A program made the position numbers and the translations under genes. A DNA stretch of 5,230 nucleotides from a virus. Lineage: Duplodnaviria; Heunggongvirae; Uroviricota; Caudoviricetes. Position 1 is the stretch's first letter. Each line of letters begins with the position of its first letter. The stretch lies in IMG/VR virus record IMGVR_UViG_2675903433_000005, one strand, 5' to 3'. The notes under the pieces are model-generated. The model ran no database searches. It saw only the letters and a program-made list of their open reading frames with translations, and was not told where the DNA came from. Positions 1 through 5,230 of the stretch are shown here, piece after piece.

Positions 1-118
1 CCTGCTGACAGAGTCCGGGGTTGGCATCCAGCACCTTTTCGGTGACGCCCCGTGTCGTGCCGTAGTACCGGAAACAGAGCGAATCCACGGTGTCGCCTTC
101 CAGTGCCTTCACTTTCAT
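1..118 (-). CDS. X: Tail protein X (P2 gpX-like), N-terminal 39 codons only; gene continues beyond the window start
   Basis: Minus-strand ATG at 118-116 overlaps the L stop (TGATG). Translation MKVKALEGDTVDSLCFRYYGTTRGVTEKVLDANPGLCQQ resembles the start of P2 gpX as I recall it, and X follows L in P2 gene order. Too short for the ORF track. Confidence 0.6.
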   Translation of the reverse strand, partial: MKVKALEGDTVDSLCFRYYGTTRGVTEKVLDANPGLCQQ

Positions 119-612
119 CAGCACAGCTCCGCAAACATTCGCGGTCGTCCCAGAATGTCAGAGATGGCCCAGCTCACATCGCGCCACAAATCCGATGTCT
201 GTATATCCAGTGCGTCCGCCCGGCGGTCGCCCTTGTCCGTTGTGTCCGCATCGCGGTAACGCTCCAGAATCAGGGCGCGTGTGGCGGTATAAACAGCATT
301 GCGCCAGTGCCAGAGATTGACGCTTTCTCCGTTAATTACAGGGGCCGGAACATCGGCCAGCGTCTGATAGCCAGCCGCCTGTTGTTCCTGCTGCCATGCT
401 TCCAGCTCGCGGGTAACGTGTGCTATGGCCCCGGTGGCGGTATGCAGCAGGCGGGAGGTGGTCACGCGGCCCGGCAGTCGTACCGCCAGACGCAGCTCAC
501 GCAGCACAATATCCGGCCAGAATGCACCCGCTGAAATGCGAGTGTCGCCATCATCGGTATCGGTGATGTCGTCCTCTGCGGGGCCGGGGTTAGTTCTGGC
601 AACCATACTCAT
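118..612 (-). CDS. L: Head completion/stabilisation protein (P2 gpL-like)
   Basis: ORF-track ORF 118..621 resembles P2 gpL, including the motif LADVPA..GES...ERYR....KGD..AD..D....LWRD..WA. The track starts at GTG 621-619; I prefer ATG 612-610 because AGGAG lies 8 nt upstream on the minus strand (reverse complement of 620-624). Stop TGA at 120-118. Confidence 0.85.
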   Translation of the reverse strand: MSMVARTNPGPAEDDITDTDDGDTRISAGAFWPDIVLRELRLAVRLPGRVTTSRLLHTATGAIAHVTRELEAWQQEQQAAGYQTLADVPAPVINGESVNLWHWRNAVYTATRALILERYRDADTTDKGDRRADALDIQTSDLWRDVSWAISDILGRPRMFAELC

Positions 613-713
613 GGGGTTCACTCCTGAAAAAATCGGGCGGTGGGTGCGCGGTGTAAACGGTCACGGAGTCAAACCGGAACACCGCGCACGCCGCCCGCTG
701 ACGGGGTCAGTCG

Positions 714-1514
714 TTAACCGCGCTTTGCCTTCTGCGTCGCGGTGGTTTTTCGTGTTGCAGGCTTCCGCGTTGTCTTTTTATTTTTGCTGCTTTCGTCCTG
801 CGCCTGCTGTGCGCTGGCGTCTTCTGGTTCGGCTGCGGAATCGGCTTTTTTCAGGGCGCGGGAAAGGGTTGCAATCTCGCGTTTCACACCTGCGTTCGGG
901 TTCAGGTGCATCGCTTCGCGCAGCAGCTTCAGTGATGAGGCCATGTTGTCTGCATCGGTCAGGCCACGACGGGCAAAGGCACACGCCTTGCATAATTTGG
1001 CGCGCACTTCGTCCGGAATGTCCTGGTTGGCGACAATTTCCCAAAGTGTGTCCAGTGGTTCGATAAAGGCGGATAAATCCGCGTCGGCATCCGTCCCAGC
1101 CTGCGTCAGTACCGGGTTGCAGATTTCTTCGGTCAGTACCGTGGCAGCAGTACGGCCAAAGTTATCCGGCATGATGAGGTTGTGACGGACCACATATGCA
1201 CCAATACGCAGCGCCAGCGGAAGATCGCCGCAGTCAATCGCCCACACCATCAGCGTGGCAATTACTTCGTCCTGTTGCCCGCCGTCAGCCTCCAGCGTTC
1301 CCTCAATCCAGCCGGAAAAGTCCGGCAACAACTCTTTTTTGATGGCGGCTTTCGCGCTTCTGGCCTGTATGGCCTTTAGCCTGGCCTGTGCCAGACGCAG
1401 ACGATACAGCACTTCTTCATGCGCGGTACACGCGGCGTGGTCCACACCTTCATTCGCCCGGCCTGCGCGCTGTGCCATCACGTTCTGCCAGTGTTGTTGT
1501 GCAGGAGTAATCAT
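714..1514 (-). CDS. M: Terminase small/endonuclease subunit (P2 gpM-like), copy 1
   Basis: 266-aa ORF matching P2 gpM in my recollection (N-terminal PAQ.H motif, central LP.F..W..G.LE....QD....T.M.W..D.GD region, PDEVRAKL, basic C-terminal tail). GGAGAG RBS 7 nt upstream of ATG 1514-1512. Position after N and before L agrees with P2 synteny. Confidence 0.85.
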   Translation of the reverse strand: MITPAQQHWQNVMAQRAGRANEGVDHAACTAHEEVLYRLRLAQARLKAIQARSAKAAIKKELLPDFSGWIEGTLEADGGQQDEVIATLMVWAIDCGDLPLALRIGAYVVRHNLIMPDNFGRTAATVLTEEICNPVLTQAGTDADADLSAFIEPLDTLWEIVANQDIPDEVRAKLCKACAFARRGLTDADNMASSLKLLREAMHLNPNAGVKREIATLSRALKKADSAAEPEDASAQQAQDESSKNKKTTRKPATRKTTATQKAKRG

Positions 1515-1531
1515 TTTTTCTCTCCGTTACA

Positions 1532-1550
1532 GGCGGGCATGATGCCCGCC
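1532..1550 (-). promoter_or_regulatory. GC-rich stem-loop in the spacer between the N-derived stop and M copy 1 (GGCGGGC / 5-nt loop / GCCCGCC)
   Basis: Perfect 7-bp inverted repeat read directly; no U-tract follows on the transcribed strand, so not a canonical intrinsic terminator. Confidence 0.4.
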
Positions 1551-1559
1551 GTGAGTTGA

Positions 1560-1994
1560 TTAGCTGTCGGCGAACTTCAGGCCAGTGACCATCGCGCACT
1601 TGCCATAGTCTTCAACGACATAAGCGTCATTGATGGACTGGTAGGTGGCGATGCGGTTGTATTCCGGCTCGTCTTTCATCAGGCGACGCATTGAACCTTT
1701 CTGCCAGTAAATCGACAGGTTGTTGAACGAGGTGATAAGCATCGTTGCATCCGGGAAGAACGGCGCAAGGAACACGCCCAGCCCGCCAATGGTGCGCGAT
1801 GACAGGATGAGCTGCCCGGCAGTATGCAGCAGGCGGGAGGTGGTCACGCGGCCCGGCAGTCGTACCGCCAGACGCAGCTCGCGCAACACAATATCCGGCC
1901 AGAATGCACCTGCTGAAATGCGAGTGTCGCCATCATCGGTATCGGTGATGTCGTCCTCTGCGGGTCTGGGTTCAGTTCTGGCAACCATACTCAT
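1560..1994 (-). CDS. Chimeric ORF created by the duplication junction: N-terminal ~59 residues of gpL fused in frame to the C-terminal 85 residues of major capsid protein gpN; probably a by-product, function unknown
   Basis: ORF-track ORF 1560..2003: residues MNPMSMVART..RLLHTA match the L N-terminus (2 aa differences), and residues GQLILSSRTIGG..KFADS are identical to the N C-terminus. Same RBS/ATG context as L (ATG 1994-1992). Confidence 0.6.
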   Translation of the reverse strand: MSMVARTEPRPAEDDITDTDDGDTRISAGAFWPDIVLRELRLAVRLPGRVTTSRLLHTAGQLILSSRTIGGLGVFLAPFFPDATMLITSFNNLSIYWQKGSMRRLMKDEPEYNRIATYQSINDAYVVEDYGKCAMVTGLKFADS

Positions 1995-2096
1995 GGGGTT
2001 CACTCCTGAAAAAAATCGGGCGGTGGGTGCGCGGTGTAAACGGTCACGGAGTCAAACCGGAACACCGCGCACGCCGCCCGCTGACGGGGTCAGTCG

Positions 2097-2897
2097 TTAA
2101 CCGCGCTTCGCCTTCTGCGTCGCGGTGGTTTTTCGTGTTGCAGGCTTCCGCGTTGTCTTTTTACTTTTGCTGCTTTCGTCCTGCGCCTGCTGTGCGCTGG
2201 CGTCTTCTGGTGCGGCTGCGGAATCGGCTTTTTTCAGGGCGCGGGAAAGGGTTGCAATCTCGCGTTTCACACCTGCGTTCGGGTTCAGGTGCATTGCTTC
2301 GCGCAGCAGCTTCAGTGACAGGGCCATGCTGTCCGCATCACTCAGGCCACGGCGGGCAAAGGCGCACGCCTTGCATAATTTGGCGCGTACTTCGTCCGGC
2401 ATGTCCTGGTCGGTGACAATCTTCCGGAGGGTGTCCAGTGGTTCGATAAAGGCGGACAAATCCGCGTCGGCATCCGCCCCGGCCTGCGTCAGTACCGGGT
2501 TGCAGATTTCTTCGGTCAGCACTGTGGCAGCAGTACGGCCAAAGTTATCCGGCATAATGAGGTTATGACGGACCACATACGCACCAATACGCAACGCCAG
2601 CGGAAGATCGCCGCAGTCAATCGCCCACACCATCAGCGTGGCAATCACTTCATCCTGCTGCCCGCCGTCAGCCTCCAGCGTTCCCTCAATCCAGCCGGAA
2701 AAATCCGGCAACAACTCTTTTTTGATGGCGGCTTTCGCGCTTCTGGCCTGTACGCCCTTAAGCCGGGCCTGTGCCAGACGCAGACGATACAGCACCTCTT
2801 CATGCGCGGTACGCGCGGCGTGGTCCACGCCTTCATTCGCCCGGCCTGCGCGCTGTGCCATCACGTTCTGCCAGTGTTGCTGTGCAGGAGTAATCAT
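2097..2897 (-). CDS. M: Terminase small/endonuclease subunit (P2 gpM-like), copy 2 (adjacent to N, in the ancestral position)
   Basis: 266-aa ORF, 252/266 identical to copy 1 by manual comparison; GGAGAG RBS upstream of ATG 2897-2895; immediately downstream of N as in P2. Confidence 0.85.
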   Translation of the reverse strand: MITPAQQHWQNVMAQRAGRANEGVDHAARTAHEEVLYRLRLAQARLKGVQARSAKAAIKKELLPDFSGWIEGTLEADGGQQDEVIATLMVWAIDCGDLPLALRIGAYVVRHNLIMPDNFGRTAATVLTEEICNPVLTQAGADADADLSAFIEPLDTLRKIVTDQDMPDEVRAKLCKACAFARRGLSDADSMALSLKLLREAMHLNPNAGVKREIATLSRALKKADSAAAPEDASAQQAQDESSKSKKTTRKPATRKTTATQKAKRG

Positions 2898-2914
2898 TTG
2901 TTCTCTCCGTTACT

Positions 2915-2933
2915 GGCGGGCATGATGCCCGCC
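2915..2933 (-). promoter_or_regulatory. GC-rich stem-loop in the N-M intergenic spacer (duplicate of 1532-1550)
   Basis: Same GGCGGGC-atgat-GCCCGCC inverted repeat between the N stop (2945-2943) and the M start (2897); conserved in both copies although the flanking spacer has 2 substitutions. Confidence 0.4.
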
Positions 2934-2942
2934 GTGAGTTGA

Positions 2943-3995
2943 TTAGCTGTCGGCGAACTTCAGGCCAGTGACCATCGCGCACTTGCCATAGTCTTCAACG
3001 ACATAAGCGTCATTGATGGACTGGTAGGTGGCGATGCGGTTGTATTCCGGCTCGTCTTTCATCAGGCGACGCATTGAACCTTTCTGCCAGTAAATCGACA
3101 GGTTGTTGAACGAGGTGATCAGCATCGTTGCATCCGGGAAGAACGGCGCAAGGAACACGCCCAGCCCGCCAATGGTGCGCGATGACAGGATGAGCTGCCC
3201 GGCGAGTAATTCCGCATTGGGATTCTGGCCGCTGATGCTGTTCAGCACGGGCAGACGCAGCGAGTTAAACAGGTTGCGCCCCATAATCACCACGAGGTCG
3301 TCAGCTTCCTTGTGCCATTCATCCAGCAGGGATGAACGCGCGTCCTGTACCAGTGCATCAGCGTTCGCATACTTACCCGCGTGCGCCACGGTGTTGTCCA
3401 TGTTGCGGGAGGTCAGCGTCACGTCATTCATAACGCGTTCGCTGGCGTCGGTTCTGATGTGCTCCAGCCATCCCACGTTAACGTCCTGAAGCAGCTTGTT
3501 GGTGCTGAAGTTGGACTCATCCGCGTGAGACGTGCCGTTGAAACCGATCATGATGCGGTCAAGCGCCACCTGTCGGGCAATCTGTGCGCTGATGCGGGAC
3601 TGAAAATCAGGGTGTGCCGCCCAGGCATCAAGCTGCGGATATGAAATAAACGTGTCGTAGTTCACCTGTTCGCACTGGTATTTGCGGTTTTTCAGATCAA
3701 CCACGTTATTCGGGTTACGGCGTTTTGTGCCGTCATAACTGGTATTCGTGCGCGCAATCGGCCCGGTGGTATCCAGGAGGATTTTTTCGCCTTTCTGGTC
3801 GGTCACGCCGATCACGTTAATTCTTTTTGTAAATTCGGTGCTTTCCTTTGAGGCGTTTTCAAAACGCTGCTGTACCGAGGGTTCCACGGTAAATCGCGAT
3901 ACCAGTGCGGAAACCGGGATATTGTTAAGCGACGCCTGCTGCGCCATATAGCAACCCAGCTTGTTGCGGGTAATATCTGACATCACCAGATTCAT
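2943..3995 (-). CDS. N: Major capsid protein (P2 gpN-like)
   Basis: 350-aa ORF with recognisable similarity to P2 gpN from memory (FTVEPSV.Q, GEKI, NKY.C.Q.N.D, GFNG, LQDV.VGWL, DLVVI.GR, YFPAD.MLIT, ENLSIY, YVVEDY). AAGGAG lies 10 nt upstream of ATG 3995-3993. Confidence 0.9.
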   Translation of the reverse strand: MNLVMSDITRNKLGCYMAQQASLNNIPVSALVSRFTVEPSVQQRFENASKESTEFTKRINVIGVTDQKGEKILLDTTGPIARTNTSYDGTKRRNPNNVVDLKNRKYQCEQVNYDTFISYPQLDAWAAHPDFQSRISAQIARQVALDRIMIGFNGTSHADESNFSTNKLLQDVNVGWLEHIRTDASERVMNDVTLTSRNMDNTVAHAGKYANADALVQDARSSLLDEWHKEADDLVVIMGRNLFNSLRLPVLNSISGQNPNAELLAGQLILSSRTIGGLGVFLAPFFPDATMLITSFNNLSIYWQKGSMRRLMKDEPEYNRIATYQSINDAYVVEDYGKCAMVTGLKFADS

Positions 3996-4018
3996 AAAAA
4001 ATTTGCTCCTTTGTCTTA

Positions 4019-4855
4019 TCAGAAGTCAGCCAGCTGGTCGGAGGCTGCGCCCGTTGCGGTGAAGCGGTTCTGCGGATCGCCGTCCTGCGTGCGCAGTTTT
4101 TCCTTCAGTGCTGCCAGCTCTGTGGTCAGTGACGTAATTTTCTGGCGGTCCTGCTGATGGCGGGTTTCCAGCACATTAAAACGGTCGATAATGTCGGCCT
4201 GTGACGTTGCGACGCCTTCCACCGCTTCCTGAATACGGGAAAAACTGGCGTCATCCGCTTTGCGGCCACGGCCAATAATCCCCATTACGCGGTTAAACCA
4301 CTGGGTGCCTTCTTCCTGGCGTTGTTCTGCCATTTCGATGATTTCAGACTCGATGGCTTCGGAGATAAGCGGCGCTTCACCCTGGACACTGTTGAACGTC
4401 ATTACCGCCTGACGTTGCTGTGCCGTGAATTTCAGGCGCTCAGTGCCCAGGCTCGCCGGGGTGTCGGTCATCGCCAGCCCGACCAGATAGGCGCGCCCGT
4501 TAACGGAGAACTGCGGGTGCAGTTCGATACTGGAATAGATTTTCTTGCCGTCAGCGACAAGCTGCTTCATGCGCTCGGTCGGTTCGATTTCTGCATACAG
4601 CGCAGTACGTCCGGCCAGCGGGCCTTCCGTAATATCTTCCGTACTCAGCGCGGTGACATCGCCCATTGCGGAAAATTCGCTTGACGGGCATGGCGAGAGA
4701 TAGTGCTCAACGTTCACGCGGGCAGCGTAAACATCCGGGTTGAAGTTCTCGGCGGCTTCACGCAGATGTACCGGGCTGATTTCGCGGCCATCAACAGTTG
4801 ATCCGGAGACAGCCACGCGAAACTTTTTGCGGGATGTCTTTTTTTCATTAGCCAT
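4019..4855 (-). CDS. O: Capsid scaffolding protein / prohead protease (P2 gpO-like)
   Basis: ORF-track ORF 4019..4888; I place the start at the internal ATG 4855-4853 (MANEKKTSRKKFRVAVSGSTVDGR...). This aligns with the P2 gpO N-terminus (MAKKVSKFFRIGVEGDTCDGR...) and has a GAGGGG RBS 8 nt upstream. Also shares SIEL.P.F...G..YLVGLA.TD.PASLGTE with gpO. Confidence 0.85.
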   Translation of the reverse strand: MANEKKTSRKKFRVAVSGSTVDGREISPVHLREAAENFNPDVYAARVNVEHYLSPCPSSEFSAMGDVTALSTEDITEGPLAGRTALYAEIEPTERMKQLVADGKKIYSSIELHPQFSVNGRAYLVGLAMTDTPASLGTERLKFTAQQRQAVMTFNSVQGEAPLISEAIESEIIEMAEQRQEEGTQWFNRVMGIIGRGRKADDASFSRIQEAVEGVATSQADIIDRFNVLETRHQQDRQKITSLTTELAALKEKLRTQDGDPQNRFTATGAASDQLADF

Positions 4856-5009
4856 AGTTTTTGCCCCTCTGACTGGTTCTTCAGTCATGATGGCAAAGCG
4901 TAACAGGCTGATACAAAGGGCTTTTGTTGTAAGAAAACAGTCAGAACAGGGGGTTAAGGAGAACGGTTTCGCGCGCGGGTAATCTTCCTGTAATTACTCA
5001 GGGGGAGCA
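4856..5009. promoter_or_regulatory. Divergent intergenic control region between O (leftward) and P (rightward); expected to hold the two late promoters
   Basis: 154-bp non-coding gap between divergently oriented start codons, matching the P2 P<->O arrangement. Contains imperfect dyads ACAAAgggcTTTTGT (4913-4927) and TGTTGTaagAAAACA (4925-4939). No promoter was verified. Confidence 0.5.
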
Positions 5010-5230
5010 ATGATTCAGGACGCTTTTGTGCGCCAGCGTGCGCGGCAACTTTACTGGCAGGGTTATCCGCCCGCAGAAATATCACGTCTGATGGGAATAA
5101 ACCCGAACACGATTTATGCGTGGAAAAAACGCGACCAGTGGGATGAAACGCCACCCGTGCAGCGTGTCACGCAGTCCATCGATGCGCGCCTCATCCAGCT
5201 CACTGAAAAACAGAATAAAACAGGTGGTGA
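5010..5230 (+). CDS. P: Terminase ATPase (large) subunit (P2 gpP-like), N-terminal part; continues beyond the window end
   Basis: ATG at 5010 preceded by GGGGGAG (5001-5007). Translation MIQDAFVRQRARQLYWQGYPPAEISRLMGINPNTIYAWKKRDQWDE... has an HTH-like N-terminus typical of P2-family terminase ATPase subunits, and the gene is divergent from O as in P2. Confidence 0.7.
   Translation, partial: MIQDAFVRQRARQLYWQGYPPAEISRLMGINPNTIYAWKKRDQWDETPPVQRVTQSIDARLIQLTEKQNKTGG

What the first reader, a model, noticed from the sequence alone, without database searches (positions are those of the whole stretch)
1560..1994. In-frame L'-'N chimeric ORF at the duplication junction
The junction fuses codons 1-59 of head-completion gene L to the last 85 codons of major capsid gene N without a frame shift or stop (junction peptide ...SRLLHTA|GQLILSS...). 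It retains the L-type RBS and ATG. An in-frame join has an a priori chance of about 1 in 3. If expressed, the product would be a capsid-protein C-terminal fragment with an unrelated N-terminus, which could be inert, or in principle interfere with capsid assembly.
Basis: partly seen in the sequence, partly recalled or inferred. Interest (0 to 1): 0.55.

Follow-up and report, generated by a model that had tools for sequence, protein, structure and literature searches.

The report
Accidental fusion ORF at prophage join
The 144-codon L'-'N open reading frame is really in the sequence, but it is a one-off by-product of an out-of-register join between two different P2/P88-like E. coli prophage lineages in a short draft contig, seen nowhere else, so it is an ordinary rearrangement scar (or possibly an assembly error), not a gene with a role.

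Summary
On the minus strand, 1994..1560 encodes 144 aa: 59 residues of head-completion protein L fused in frame to the last 85 residues of capsid protein N, with the L ribosome-binding site and ATG kept.

The word "duplication" needs correcting. Window 1-1821 matches the O26:H11-type P88-like prophage ("A", one mismatch). Window 1818-5230 matches a rare lineage ("B", strain TK3046, 99.8%). The switch falls exactly on a 4-nt microhomology, GGCA (1818-1821). So this is one illegitimate, out-of-register join of two related phage genomes, leaving a 1383-bp overlap with two different M alleles.

The window is an entire 5230-bp contig of a draft E. coli assembly (CYGC01000097.1). The junction is absent from 5,426 complete E. 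coli genomes, GTDB representatives, IMG/VR and JGI metagenomes. The protein is a singleton among about 15 billion, and no other protein covers both halves.

An in-frame join has a 1-in-3 chance, and nothing indicates selection or function. Related degraded prophages carry similar accidental fusions. A real rearrangement is my best reading (about 0.6); an assembly artefact remains a serious rival (about 0.3). Interest is low.

The parts
1560..1994 (-). Chimeric L'-'N ORF, 144 aa plus stop (protein CTZ98307.1 / WP_053904695.1, which the databases call 'P2 family phage major capsid protein')
1818..1821 (.). Junction microhomology GGCA, shared by N of lineage A (CCCGGCA|AGTAATT) and L of lineage B (GGTGGCA|GTATGCAG)
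   Evidence: three-way comparison of the window, NC_013361.1 and NZ_AP044762.1.
1822..1994 (-). L' part: codons 1-58 of the lineage-B head-completion gene (codon 59 lies in the microhomology)
   Evidence: identical to the first 59 aa of TK3046 L. It differs from the intact L copy in the window at residues 8 and 10.
1560..1817 (-). 'N part: last 85 codons plus stop of the lineage-A capsid gene. It aligns to residues 260-344 of P2 gpN (PDB 7jw1).
1995..2096 (-). M-L intergenic leader of the chimera: a strong hairpin, then U7, then the RBS CAGGAG. It looks like a terminator or attenuator.
   Evidence: -49.1 kcal/mol, z -4.98.
436..1821 (-). Copy A of the 1383-bp overlap: 3' part of L(A), M(A) and the 'N tail, all lineage A
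1818..3204 (-). Copy B of the overlap: L'(B), M(B) and the 3' end of the intact N, all lineage B
714..1514 (-). M(A), terminase small subunit, 266 aa. This allele is seen on at least 1000 contigs.
2097..2897 (-). M(B), terminase small subunit, 266 aa. This allele is seen on 158 contigs.
118..612 (-). Intact L(A), head completion protein, 164 aa. It is the only complete L in the contig.
2943..3995 (-). Intact N, major capsid protein, 350 aa
4019..4855 (-). O, capsid scaffold/protease, 278 aa as called in public records

Best explanation
The ORF is an accidental product of one illegitimate recombination event between two related but distinct P88-like (P2-family, Xuanwuvirus-type) prophage genomes in an E. 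coli isolate.

The left arm of a lineage-B genome (P, O, N, M and the first 58-59 codons of L) was joined to the right arm of a lineage-A genome (the last 85 codons of N, then M, L, X...). The join sits at a 4-nt microhomology, GGCA, 1383 bp out of register. The simplest route is a deletion between two tandem or neighbouring prophages. Unequal exchange between two co-resident genomes is the other route.

The result is a hybrid head operon, O-N-M(B)-[L'-'N]-M(A)-L(A)-X, with two different M alleles. The join happens to be in frame (chance 1 in 3).

Inferred, not shown: if the late operon is transcribed, the fusion would be translated from the L RBS at L-like, low levels, because it lies behind the terminator-like hairpin that follows M. 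It would end at the natural N stop. The product contains only the last quarter of the HK97-fold capsid protein and about a third of L, so it is most likely unstable and inert.

Shown here: the anatomy, the two parental lineages, the microhomology, and the uniqueness of the junction and protein.
For: - Lineage A: window 1-1820 is 99.9% identical to the O26:H11-type prophage, and 306 records match at >=99%.
- Lineage B: window 1821-5230 is 99.8% identical to the TK3046/YC21-F17 prophage, and only 2 records match at >=99%.
- Base-by-base, the match to A ends at 1821 and the match to B begins at 1818. Position 1821 (A) is the lineage-specific base in both parents.
- Both M proteins are natural alleles, seen on >=1000 and 158 contigs. 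The 4% divergence is therefore inherited, not drift after a duplication.
- All related prophages and phages have a single O-N-M-L-X layout: the full-length matches listed span about 3847 bp, and the ten loci read all show that gene order.
- A 4-nt microhomology at non-homologous positions is what illegitimate recombination leaves. A k-mer graph assembler could not invent such a join without reads across it (inference).
- Other P2-like prophages show comparable accidental fusions: O'-'L of 185 aa on 4 contigs, and an L-I fusion next to a truncated N.
- No terminator-like site was found on the minus strand by the scan. The chimera keeps the L leader.
Against: - The only source is one 5230-bp contig of a short-read-style draft assembly. 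Both contig ends lie inside phage genes, as expected when several related prophages tangle an assembly graph.
- The right end stops one base before a site that differs between lineages A and B.
- A full-length lineage-B L protein carries accessions close to those of the chimera (CTZ98878.1 / WP_053904731.1 against CTZ98307.1 / WP_053904695.1). An intact L(B) may therefore sit on another contig of the same assembly, which would not fit a simple single hybrid prophage.
- The junction is found nowhere else, so there is no independent confirmation.
- No reads, coverage or expression data were available.
Confidence: 0.6

Rival explanations
1. Assembly or scaffolding artefact. The isolate carries two ordinary P88-like prophages (A and B), and the draft pipeline (assembly, scaffolding, gap closing) wrongly spliced an A-derived piece to a B-derived piece. 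On this reading the junction and the ORF do not exist in the genome.
For: - The window is a complete 5.2-kb contig ending inside phage genes at both ends.
- The two halves are two different lineages.
- The right end abuts an A/B polymorphic site.
- Accession numbering suggests an intact L(B) may exist in the same assembly.
- The junction and the protein are unique in every collection searched.
- The two copies share identical stretches of up to 205 bp, which short reads cannot span.
Against: - The join is between non-homologous positions with only 4 nt in common. Graph assemblers and gap closers need overlaps of tens of bases supported by reads, and PCR chimeras form in register between homologous templates (inference from how these tools work).
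- The breakpoint does not sit a k-mer's distance from the nearest lineage-specific sites on both sides. It is 84 nt from site 1737 on the A side and 60 nt from site 1881 on the B side, so it does not look like two graph unitigs glued end to end.
Confidence: 0.3
2. A true in-situ tandem duplication of 1383 bp within one prophage, followed later by replacement of one copy through homologous recombination with a second prophage lineage.
For: Tandem duplications at microhomologies are common, and P2-like prophages exchange alleles readily. The N tail differs between the copies at only 2 sites (1737 and 1821). The window carries the B-type base at 1683 on the A side, and two A-like bases (1923, 1926) on the B side.
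Against: This needs two events. It also needs the conversion tract to end within 4 nt of the duplication junction, because lineage-specific bases sit at 1821 in both parental readings and at 1737 and 1881 on either side. One event between two parents explains the same data.
Confidence: 0.05
3. The fusion is a functional protein. For example, it could be a dominant-negative capsid fragment that interferes with assembly of the resident or superinfecting P2-like phages or P4-like satellites, and it has been retained for that reason.
For: It is in frame, has a good RBS (GGAG 8 nt before the ATG), and lies inside the late head operon with no terminator-like site found on that strand by the scan. 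The N piece starts just after the loop that is disordered in the P2 gpN model, so it is a contiguous modelled segment (residues 261-346, PMC7552001).
Against: - It is a singleton among about 15 billion proteins, and no homologue covers both halves.
- An in-frame join has a 1-in-3 prior.
- It lacks the N-arm, E-loop, spine helix and most of the A-domain, which make the capsomer contacts (PMC7552001).
- The AF2 model has pLDDT 38.
- It lies behind a terminator-like hairpin, which implies low expression.
Confidence: 0.03

Closest known systems
Illegitimate (non-homologous, microhomology-mediated) recombination joints proposed to underlie phage genome mosaicism
   Same: A join between non-homologous positions of two related temperate-phage genomes at a few shared bases. 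It leaves an out-of-register scar (a partial duplication) of the kind the model predicts as a raw product. The debate over illegitimate versus homeologous exchange is set out in PMC2327257.
   Different: This is a single unconfirmed instance in a draft contig. The parents are 96-97% identical, so homologous exchange would have been far easier. There is no evidence that the product is a viable phage.
Deletion-fusion ORFs in decaying P2-like prophages of E. coli (for example the O'-'L fusion P0121 and the L-I fusion in L007)
   Same: Chimeric head-gene ORFs made by rearrangement inside the same late operon. The databases annotate them after whichever domain scores best.
   Different: Those are net deletions that remove essential genes, and some occur on several contigs. 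Here nothing is lost: a full set O, N, M, L remains, and 1383 bp are gained.
P2 gpN major capsid protein (PDB 7jw1) and P2 gpL head completion protein
   Same: Residues 60-144 align to gpN 260-344 (E 1e-15) and are 100% identical to the resident N. Residues 1-59 are 100% identical to a natural L allele.
   Different: It contains about a quarter of N and about a third of L. Neither fragment comprises a complete domain of its parent (PMC7552001).
Misassembled repeats in short-read draft genomes with several related prophages
   Same: A short contig ending inside phage genes and composed of two prophage lineages.
   Different: Typical misassemblies switch between copies in register within long identical stretches. 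This join is out of register, with only 4 shared bases.

Membership tests
P2-family major capsid protein (Pfam PF05125; the name the databases give this ORF) | A full-length HK97-like fold covering the whole profile (N-arm, E-loop, P-domain with spine helix, A-domain) | tested here: not met
   Only profile positions 246-324 of 327 are matched. The ORF aligns to gpN residues 260-344 of 357 in 7jw1. The fold elements are described in PMC7552001.
P2-family major capsid protein (Pfam PF05125) | Sequence score above the curated cut-off | tested here: met
   100.9 bits against a cut-off of 27. It scores as a fragment, which explains the database name.
Head completion protein GPL (Pfam PF05926) | Score above the gathering threshold and coverage of the 139-position profile | tested here: not met
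   24.2 bits against a cut-off of 27; only positions 1-34 of 139 are matched.
Simple in-situ tandem duplication | Both copies derive from the same parental sequence, so they are near-identical or differ only by private mutations | tested here: not met
   The copies are 96% identical. Each matches a different natural lineage at 99.8-99.9%, and both M alleles are widespread.
Illegitimate-recombination junction | The joined positions are non-homologous and share only a few bases | tested here: met
   N codon 265/266 is joined to L codon 58/59. The shared bases are GGCA only.
Illegitimate-recombination junction | The junction is physically present in the genome (reads, PCR or long reads across it) | not testable with these tools
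   Only the deposited contig is available.
Conserved (selected) phage gene | Present in related genomes | tested here: not met
   - 0 of 1028 E. coli genomes that match the flanks span the junction.
- 0 hits in GTDB representatives, IMG/VR and JGI metagenomes.
- The protein cluster has 1 member.
- No other protein covers both halves.
Expressed gene of the P2-type late head operon | RBS and start codon present, same strand as the operon, no terminator in between | tested here: inconclusive
   The RBS and ATG are intact, and the ORF is on the same strand as O-N-M-L. However, a strong hairpin plus U7 precedes it, as it does every L gene of this phage group. No expression data are available.

The most novel reading that the evidence does not exclude
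The junction is real and the hybrid is a viable phage caught just after an out-of-register illegitimate exchange. Its in-frame L'-'N product is made during late gene expression and acts on capsid assembly, for example as a poison subunit against related P2-like helpers or P4-like satellites. The in-frame state would also have been favoured because it avoids polarity on the only intact L and the downstream lysis and tail genes.
Probability: 0.03. Interest if true: 0.5.

Novelty: new member of a known kind. Interest (0 to 1): 0.12.

Why it matters
If the junction is real, it is a clean snapshot of the raw product of illegitimate recombination between two related temperate phages. Both parents can be identified, the breakpoint is base-exact, and the duplicated scar has not yet been trimmed. 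That has modest illustrative value for models of phage mosaicism.

It also flags an annotation problem. The fragment is named "P2 family phage major capsid protein" in RefSeq, UniRef and ENA, although it holds only a quarter of that protein.

It does not open a new question about capsid assembly, and nothing suggests the ORF has a role.

Tried and rejected
- **Tandem Repeats Finder:** found nothing, because its longest period is 500. The repeat was defined with the repeat finder and a MAFFT alignment instead.
- **Junction searches:** searches in complete E. coli genomes, GTDB representatives, IMG/VR and JGI metagenomes all came back empty.
- **Exact look-up of the 147-aa GTG-start version:** not on record. 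The 144-aa ATG version is on record.
- **Fetching the contig that carries full-length L(B) (P0018 / CTZ98878.1):** The accession-number proximity therefore stays a lead only. The step between the two adjacent genes is 3 and the gap of 571 is not a multiple of 3, so the numbering may interleave several assemblies.
- **Inferring an assembler k-mer size:** I compared the distances from the contig ends and the junction to lineage-specific sites. No consistent k emerged (84 against 60 at the junction). Only the right contig end abuts a polymorphic site.
- **Look-up of the O protein:** I hoped to find close relatives of this particular prophage, but the allele is too common (4044 blocks). The ten places shown all have the ordinary single-copy layout.
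- **AlphaFold2 on the single sequence:** pLDDT 38, uninformative. No fold search was run on such a model.
- **PDB search with L:** no solved relative.
- **Literature search for the assembly accession:** nothing found.
- **Programmed or conserved fusion gene:** rejected, because no other instance exists.

Full report
**What is in the window**

All head genes lie on the minus strand, in the order of a P2-type late operon.
- O (scaffold/protease): 4855..4019.
- N (major capsid protein): 3995..2943, 350 aa.
- M (small terminase): 2897..2097, 266 aa.
- The ORF in question: 1994..1560.
- A second M: 1514..714.
- An intact L (head completion): 612..118, 164 aa.
- The start of X runs off the left end. 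The start of the large terminase gene P (plus strand, from 5010) runs off the right end.

These assignments rest. Pfam assigns every one of them to the P2 families.

**Checking the observation**

The ORF is exactly as described. It is 144 codons from ATG 1994 to TAA 1560. The first 59 residues equal a natural L N-terminus and the last 85 residues equal the N C-terminus. The junction peptide is SRLLHTA|GQLILSS. The leader, with GGAG 8 nt before the ATG, matches that of the intact L copy apart from one extra T.

The repeat behind it is a 1383-bp unit. Copy A is 436-1821 and copy B is 1818-3204, with about 56 differences (96% identity). Most differences lie in M, and only two lie in the N tail.

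An in-frame join has a prior of one third. The other two frames would stop after 46 or 63 codons. The frame alone therefore says nothing about selection.

**What the "duplication" really is**

The two copies are not drifted copies of one parent.
- Window 1-1820 is 99.9% identical (one mismatch, at 1683) to the P88-like prophage of O26:H11 strains such as 11368. In total 306 complete-genome records match at >=99%.
- Window 1821-5230 is 99.8% identical to a prophage in strains TK3046 and YC21-F17. These are the only two records at >=99%.
- Both M proteins are natural alleles, seen on >=1000 and on 158 contigs.

Base by base, lineage A reads N as ...CCCGGCA|AGTAATT and lineage B reads L as ...GGTGGCA|GTATGCAG. 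The window reads CCCGGCAGTATGCAG. The match to A therefore ends at 1821 and the match to B begins at 1818, sharing GGCA.

The lineage switch coincides with the junction to within 4 nt. A single out-of-register illegitimate join of two related genomes explains everything. A duplication followed by allele replacement would need a second event whose tract happens to end at the junction.

**Where it comes from, and whether it exists elsewhere**

The exact protein look-up shows that the window is the complete 5230-bp contig CYGC01000097.1 of the draft E. coli assembly GCA_001283185.1. The protein (CTZ98307.1 / WP_053904695.1) is named "P2 family phage major capsid protein" there.

It forms a cluster of one among about 15 billion proteins. 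A homology search found no other protein that covers both halves. All other hits cover at most 78% (N fragments) or about 41% (L fragments).

A 161-nt probe across the junction matched 1028 complete E. coli genomes on one side or the other, but none across it. A 24-nt junction pattern is absent from GTDB species representatives, IMG/VR and JGI metagenomes.

Related prophages and phages (P88, Xuanwuvirus and others) carry the plain single-copy order O-N-M-L-X. The full-length matches listed span about 3847 bp, and the ten loci read all show that order.

**Real or artefact?**

For a real junction:
- The join is between non-homologous positions with 4 shared bases.
- This is the signature of illegitimate recombination. 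It is not something a k-mer graph, a scaffolder or a gap closer produces without reads across it.
- PCR chimeras between two homologous prophages would be in register. These points are inferences from how the methods work.
- The breakpoint is not a constant k-mer distance from the nearest lineage-specific sites (84 nt on one side, 60 nt on the other).

For an artefact:
- The only evidence is a short draft contig that ends inside phage genes on both sides.
- Its right end stops one base before a site that is polymorphic between A and B.
- The copies share identical runs of up to 205 bp.
- A full-length lineage-B L protein carries accessions suspiciously close to those of the chimera and M(B): CTZ98878.1 and WP_053904731.1 against CTZ98307.1/98310.1 and WP_053904695.1/696.1.
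- That hints that the same assembly may also hold an intact L(B). I could not fetch that contig, and the numbering may interleave assemblies.

I put a real junction at about 0.65 in total. That is 0.6 for the single-event hybrid and 0.05 for duplication plus conversion. I put an artefact at about 0.3.

**How it would work if real**

The hybrid operon keeps a full set of head genes: O, N, two M alleles and L(A). Nothing essential is lost, and the genome gains 1383 bp.

The simplest origin is a microhomology-mediated deletion between two tandem or neighbouring prophages, with B to the left and A to the right in gene order. The alternative is an unequal exchange between two co-resident genomes.

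The fusion ORF sits in the late transcript behind the M-L intergenic element. On the mRNA this element is a long GC-rich hairpin (-49.1 kcal/mol, z -4.98) followed directly by U7 and then the RBS. It is 98-100% conserved in all 16 P88-like phage records. It looks like an attenuating terminator that keeps L low relative to O, N and M; that is an inference.

Two consequences follow, both inferred.
- The fusion would be made at L-like low levels, far below N.
- The intact L(A) and everything downstream now lie behind two such elements in series, which could lower their expression and make the hybrid less fit.

The N piece aligns to residues 260-344 of P2 gpN (7jw1). That is the segment modelled after the disordered 254-260 loop. 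It lacks the N-arm, the E-loop, the spine helix and the sir-loop part of the A-domain (PMC7552001). It cannot be a capsomer subunit.

A single-sequence AlphaFold2 model is uninformative (pLDDT 38). I therefore regard the product as most likely unstable and inert.

**Comparison with what is known**

The event belongs to a known kind. It is an illegitimate-recombination joint of the sort invoked for phage mosaicism, discussed against homeologous exchange in PMC2327257.

The ORF belongs with the accidental fusion ORFs seen in other rearranged P2-like prophages. Examples are an O'-'L fusion of 185 aa on four contigs, and an L-I fusion next to an N-terminally truncated N.

It is not a member of the capsid-protein family in any functional sense. 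It matches only the last quarter of the profile. It also fails the L-family threshold.

**Verdict**

- This is an ordinary one-off rearrangement scar, or possibly a misassembly.
- Interest is low (0.12).
- The decisive test is simple: map the isolate's reads across 1818-1821.

Noticed in passing
window 1995-2096 (minus strand) and its copy 613-713: The M-L intergenic RNA folds into a long GC-rich hairpin (7+11 bp stem, -49.1 kcal/mol, z -4.98). It is followed at once by U7 (U6 in copy A) and then the L RBS, so it looks like an intrinsic terminator or attenuator that would set L expression below O/N/M. The consensus terminator scan missed it because the loop is too long. It is 98-100% conserved in all 16 P88-like phage records, and no distant matches exist, so covariation could not be tested. 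In this contig it occurs twice in series ahead of the only intact L.
   Followed up: partly
window 1532-1550 and 2915-2933: A perfect 9-bp inverted repeat (GGCGGGCAT/ATGCCCGCC) lies between the N stop and the M start, in both copies. The RNA hairpin is -17.6 kcal/mol (z -3.35) with no U-run, so it could be an mRNA-stabilising or processing element after the highly expressed capsid gene.
   Followed up: partly
window 1 and 5230 (the contig ends): The window is an entire draft contig (CYGC01000097.1) whose two ends fall inside phage genes X and P. The right end stops exactly one base before a site (5231) that differs between lineages A and B. This suggests the assembly graph branched there, and hence that the isolate's reads contain more than one P88-like sequence.
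   Followed up: partly
L003:3680-4174 (TK3046 L gene), compared with the window: The full-length lineage-B L protein has accessions (CTZ98878.1, WP_053904731.1) numerically close to those of the chimera and M(B). It may therefore have been first recorded from the same assembly or batch. If it is the same assembly, an intact L(B) coexists with the junction.
   Followed up: partly
L004-L006 8001-8558; L007 8001-8438 and 9387-10181: Other E. coli P2-like prophages carry accidental fusion or truncated head-gene ORFs. These are an O'-'L fusion of 185 aa (N and M deleted) on four contigs including a 421-kb one, and an N-terminally truncated N (145 aa) next to an L-I (head completion-baseplate) fusion of 264 aa. 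Deletion scars of this kind seem common in this prophage family.
   Followed up: partly
window 912-1047 versus 2295-2430: The differences between the two M alleles cluster in the 3' third of the gene (about 20 of 56 differences within 135 nt), while long stretches elsewhere are identical. This mosaic pattern is typical of allele exchange among P2-like prophages.
   Followed up: no
window 1683, 1886, 1911, 1923, 1926: There are a few departures from the closest reference lineages near the junction. Position 1683 carries the B-type base on the A side. Positions 1923 and 1926 carry A-like bases on the B side. Positions 1886 and 1911 are private. These may be natural variation, small conversion patches, or consensus mixing of reads from two prophages.
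   Followed up: no
window 1560-1994 (database record): RefSeq, UniRef and ENA name the 144-aa chimera 'P2 family phage major capsid protein' or 'Major capsid protein precursor (GpN)', although it holds only the last 85 residues of N fused to an L fragment. This is an annotation error that can propagate.
   Followed up: yes
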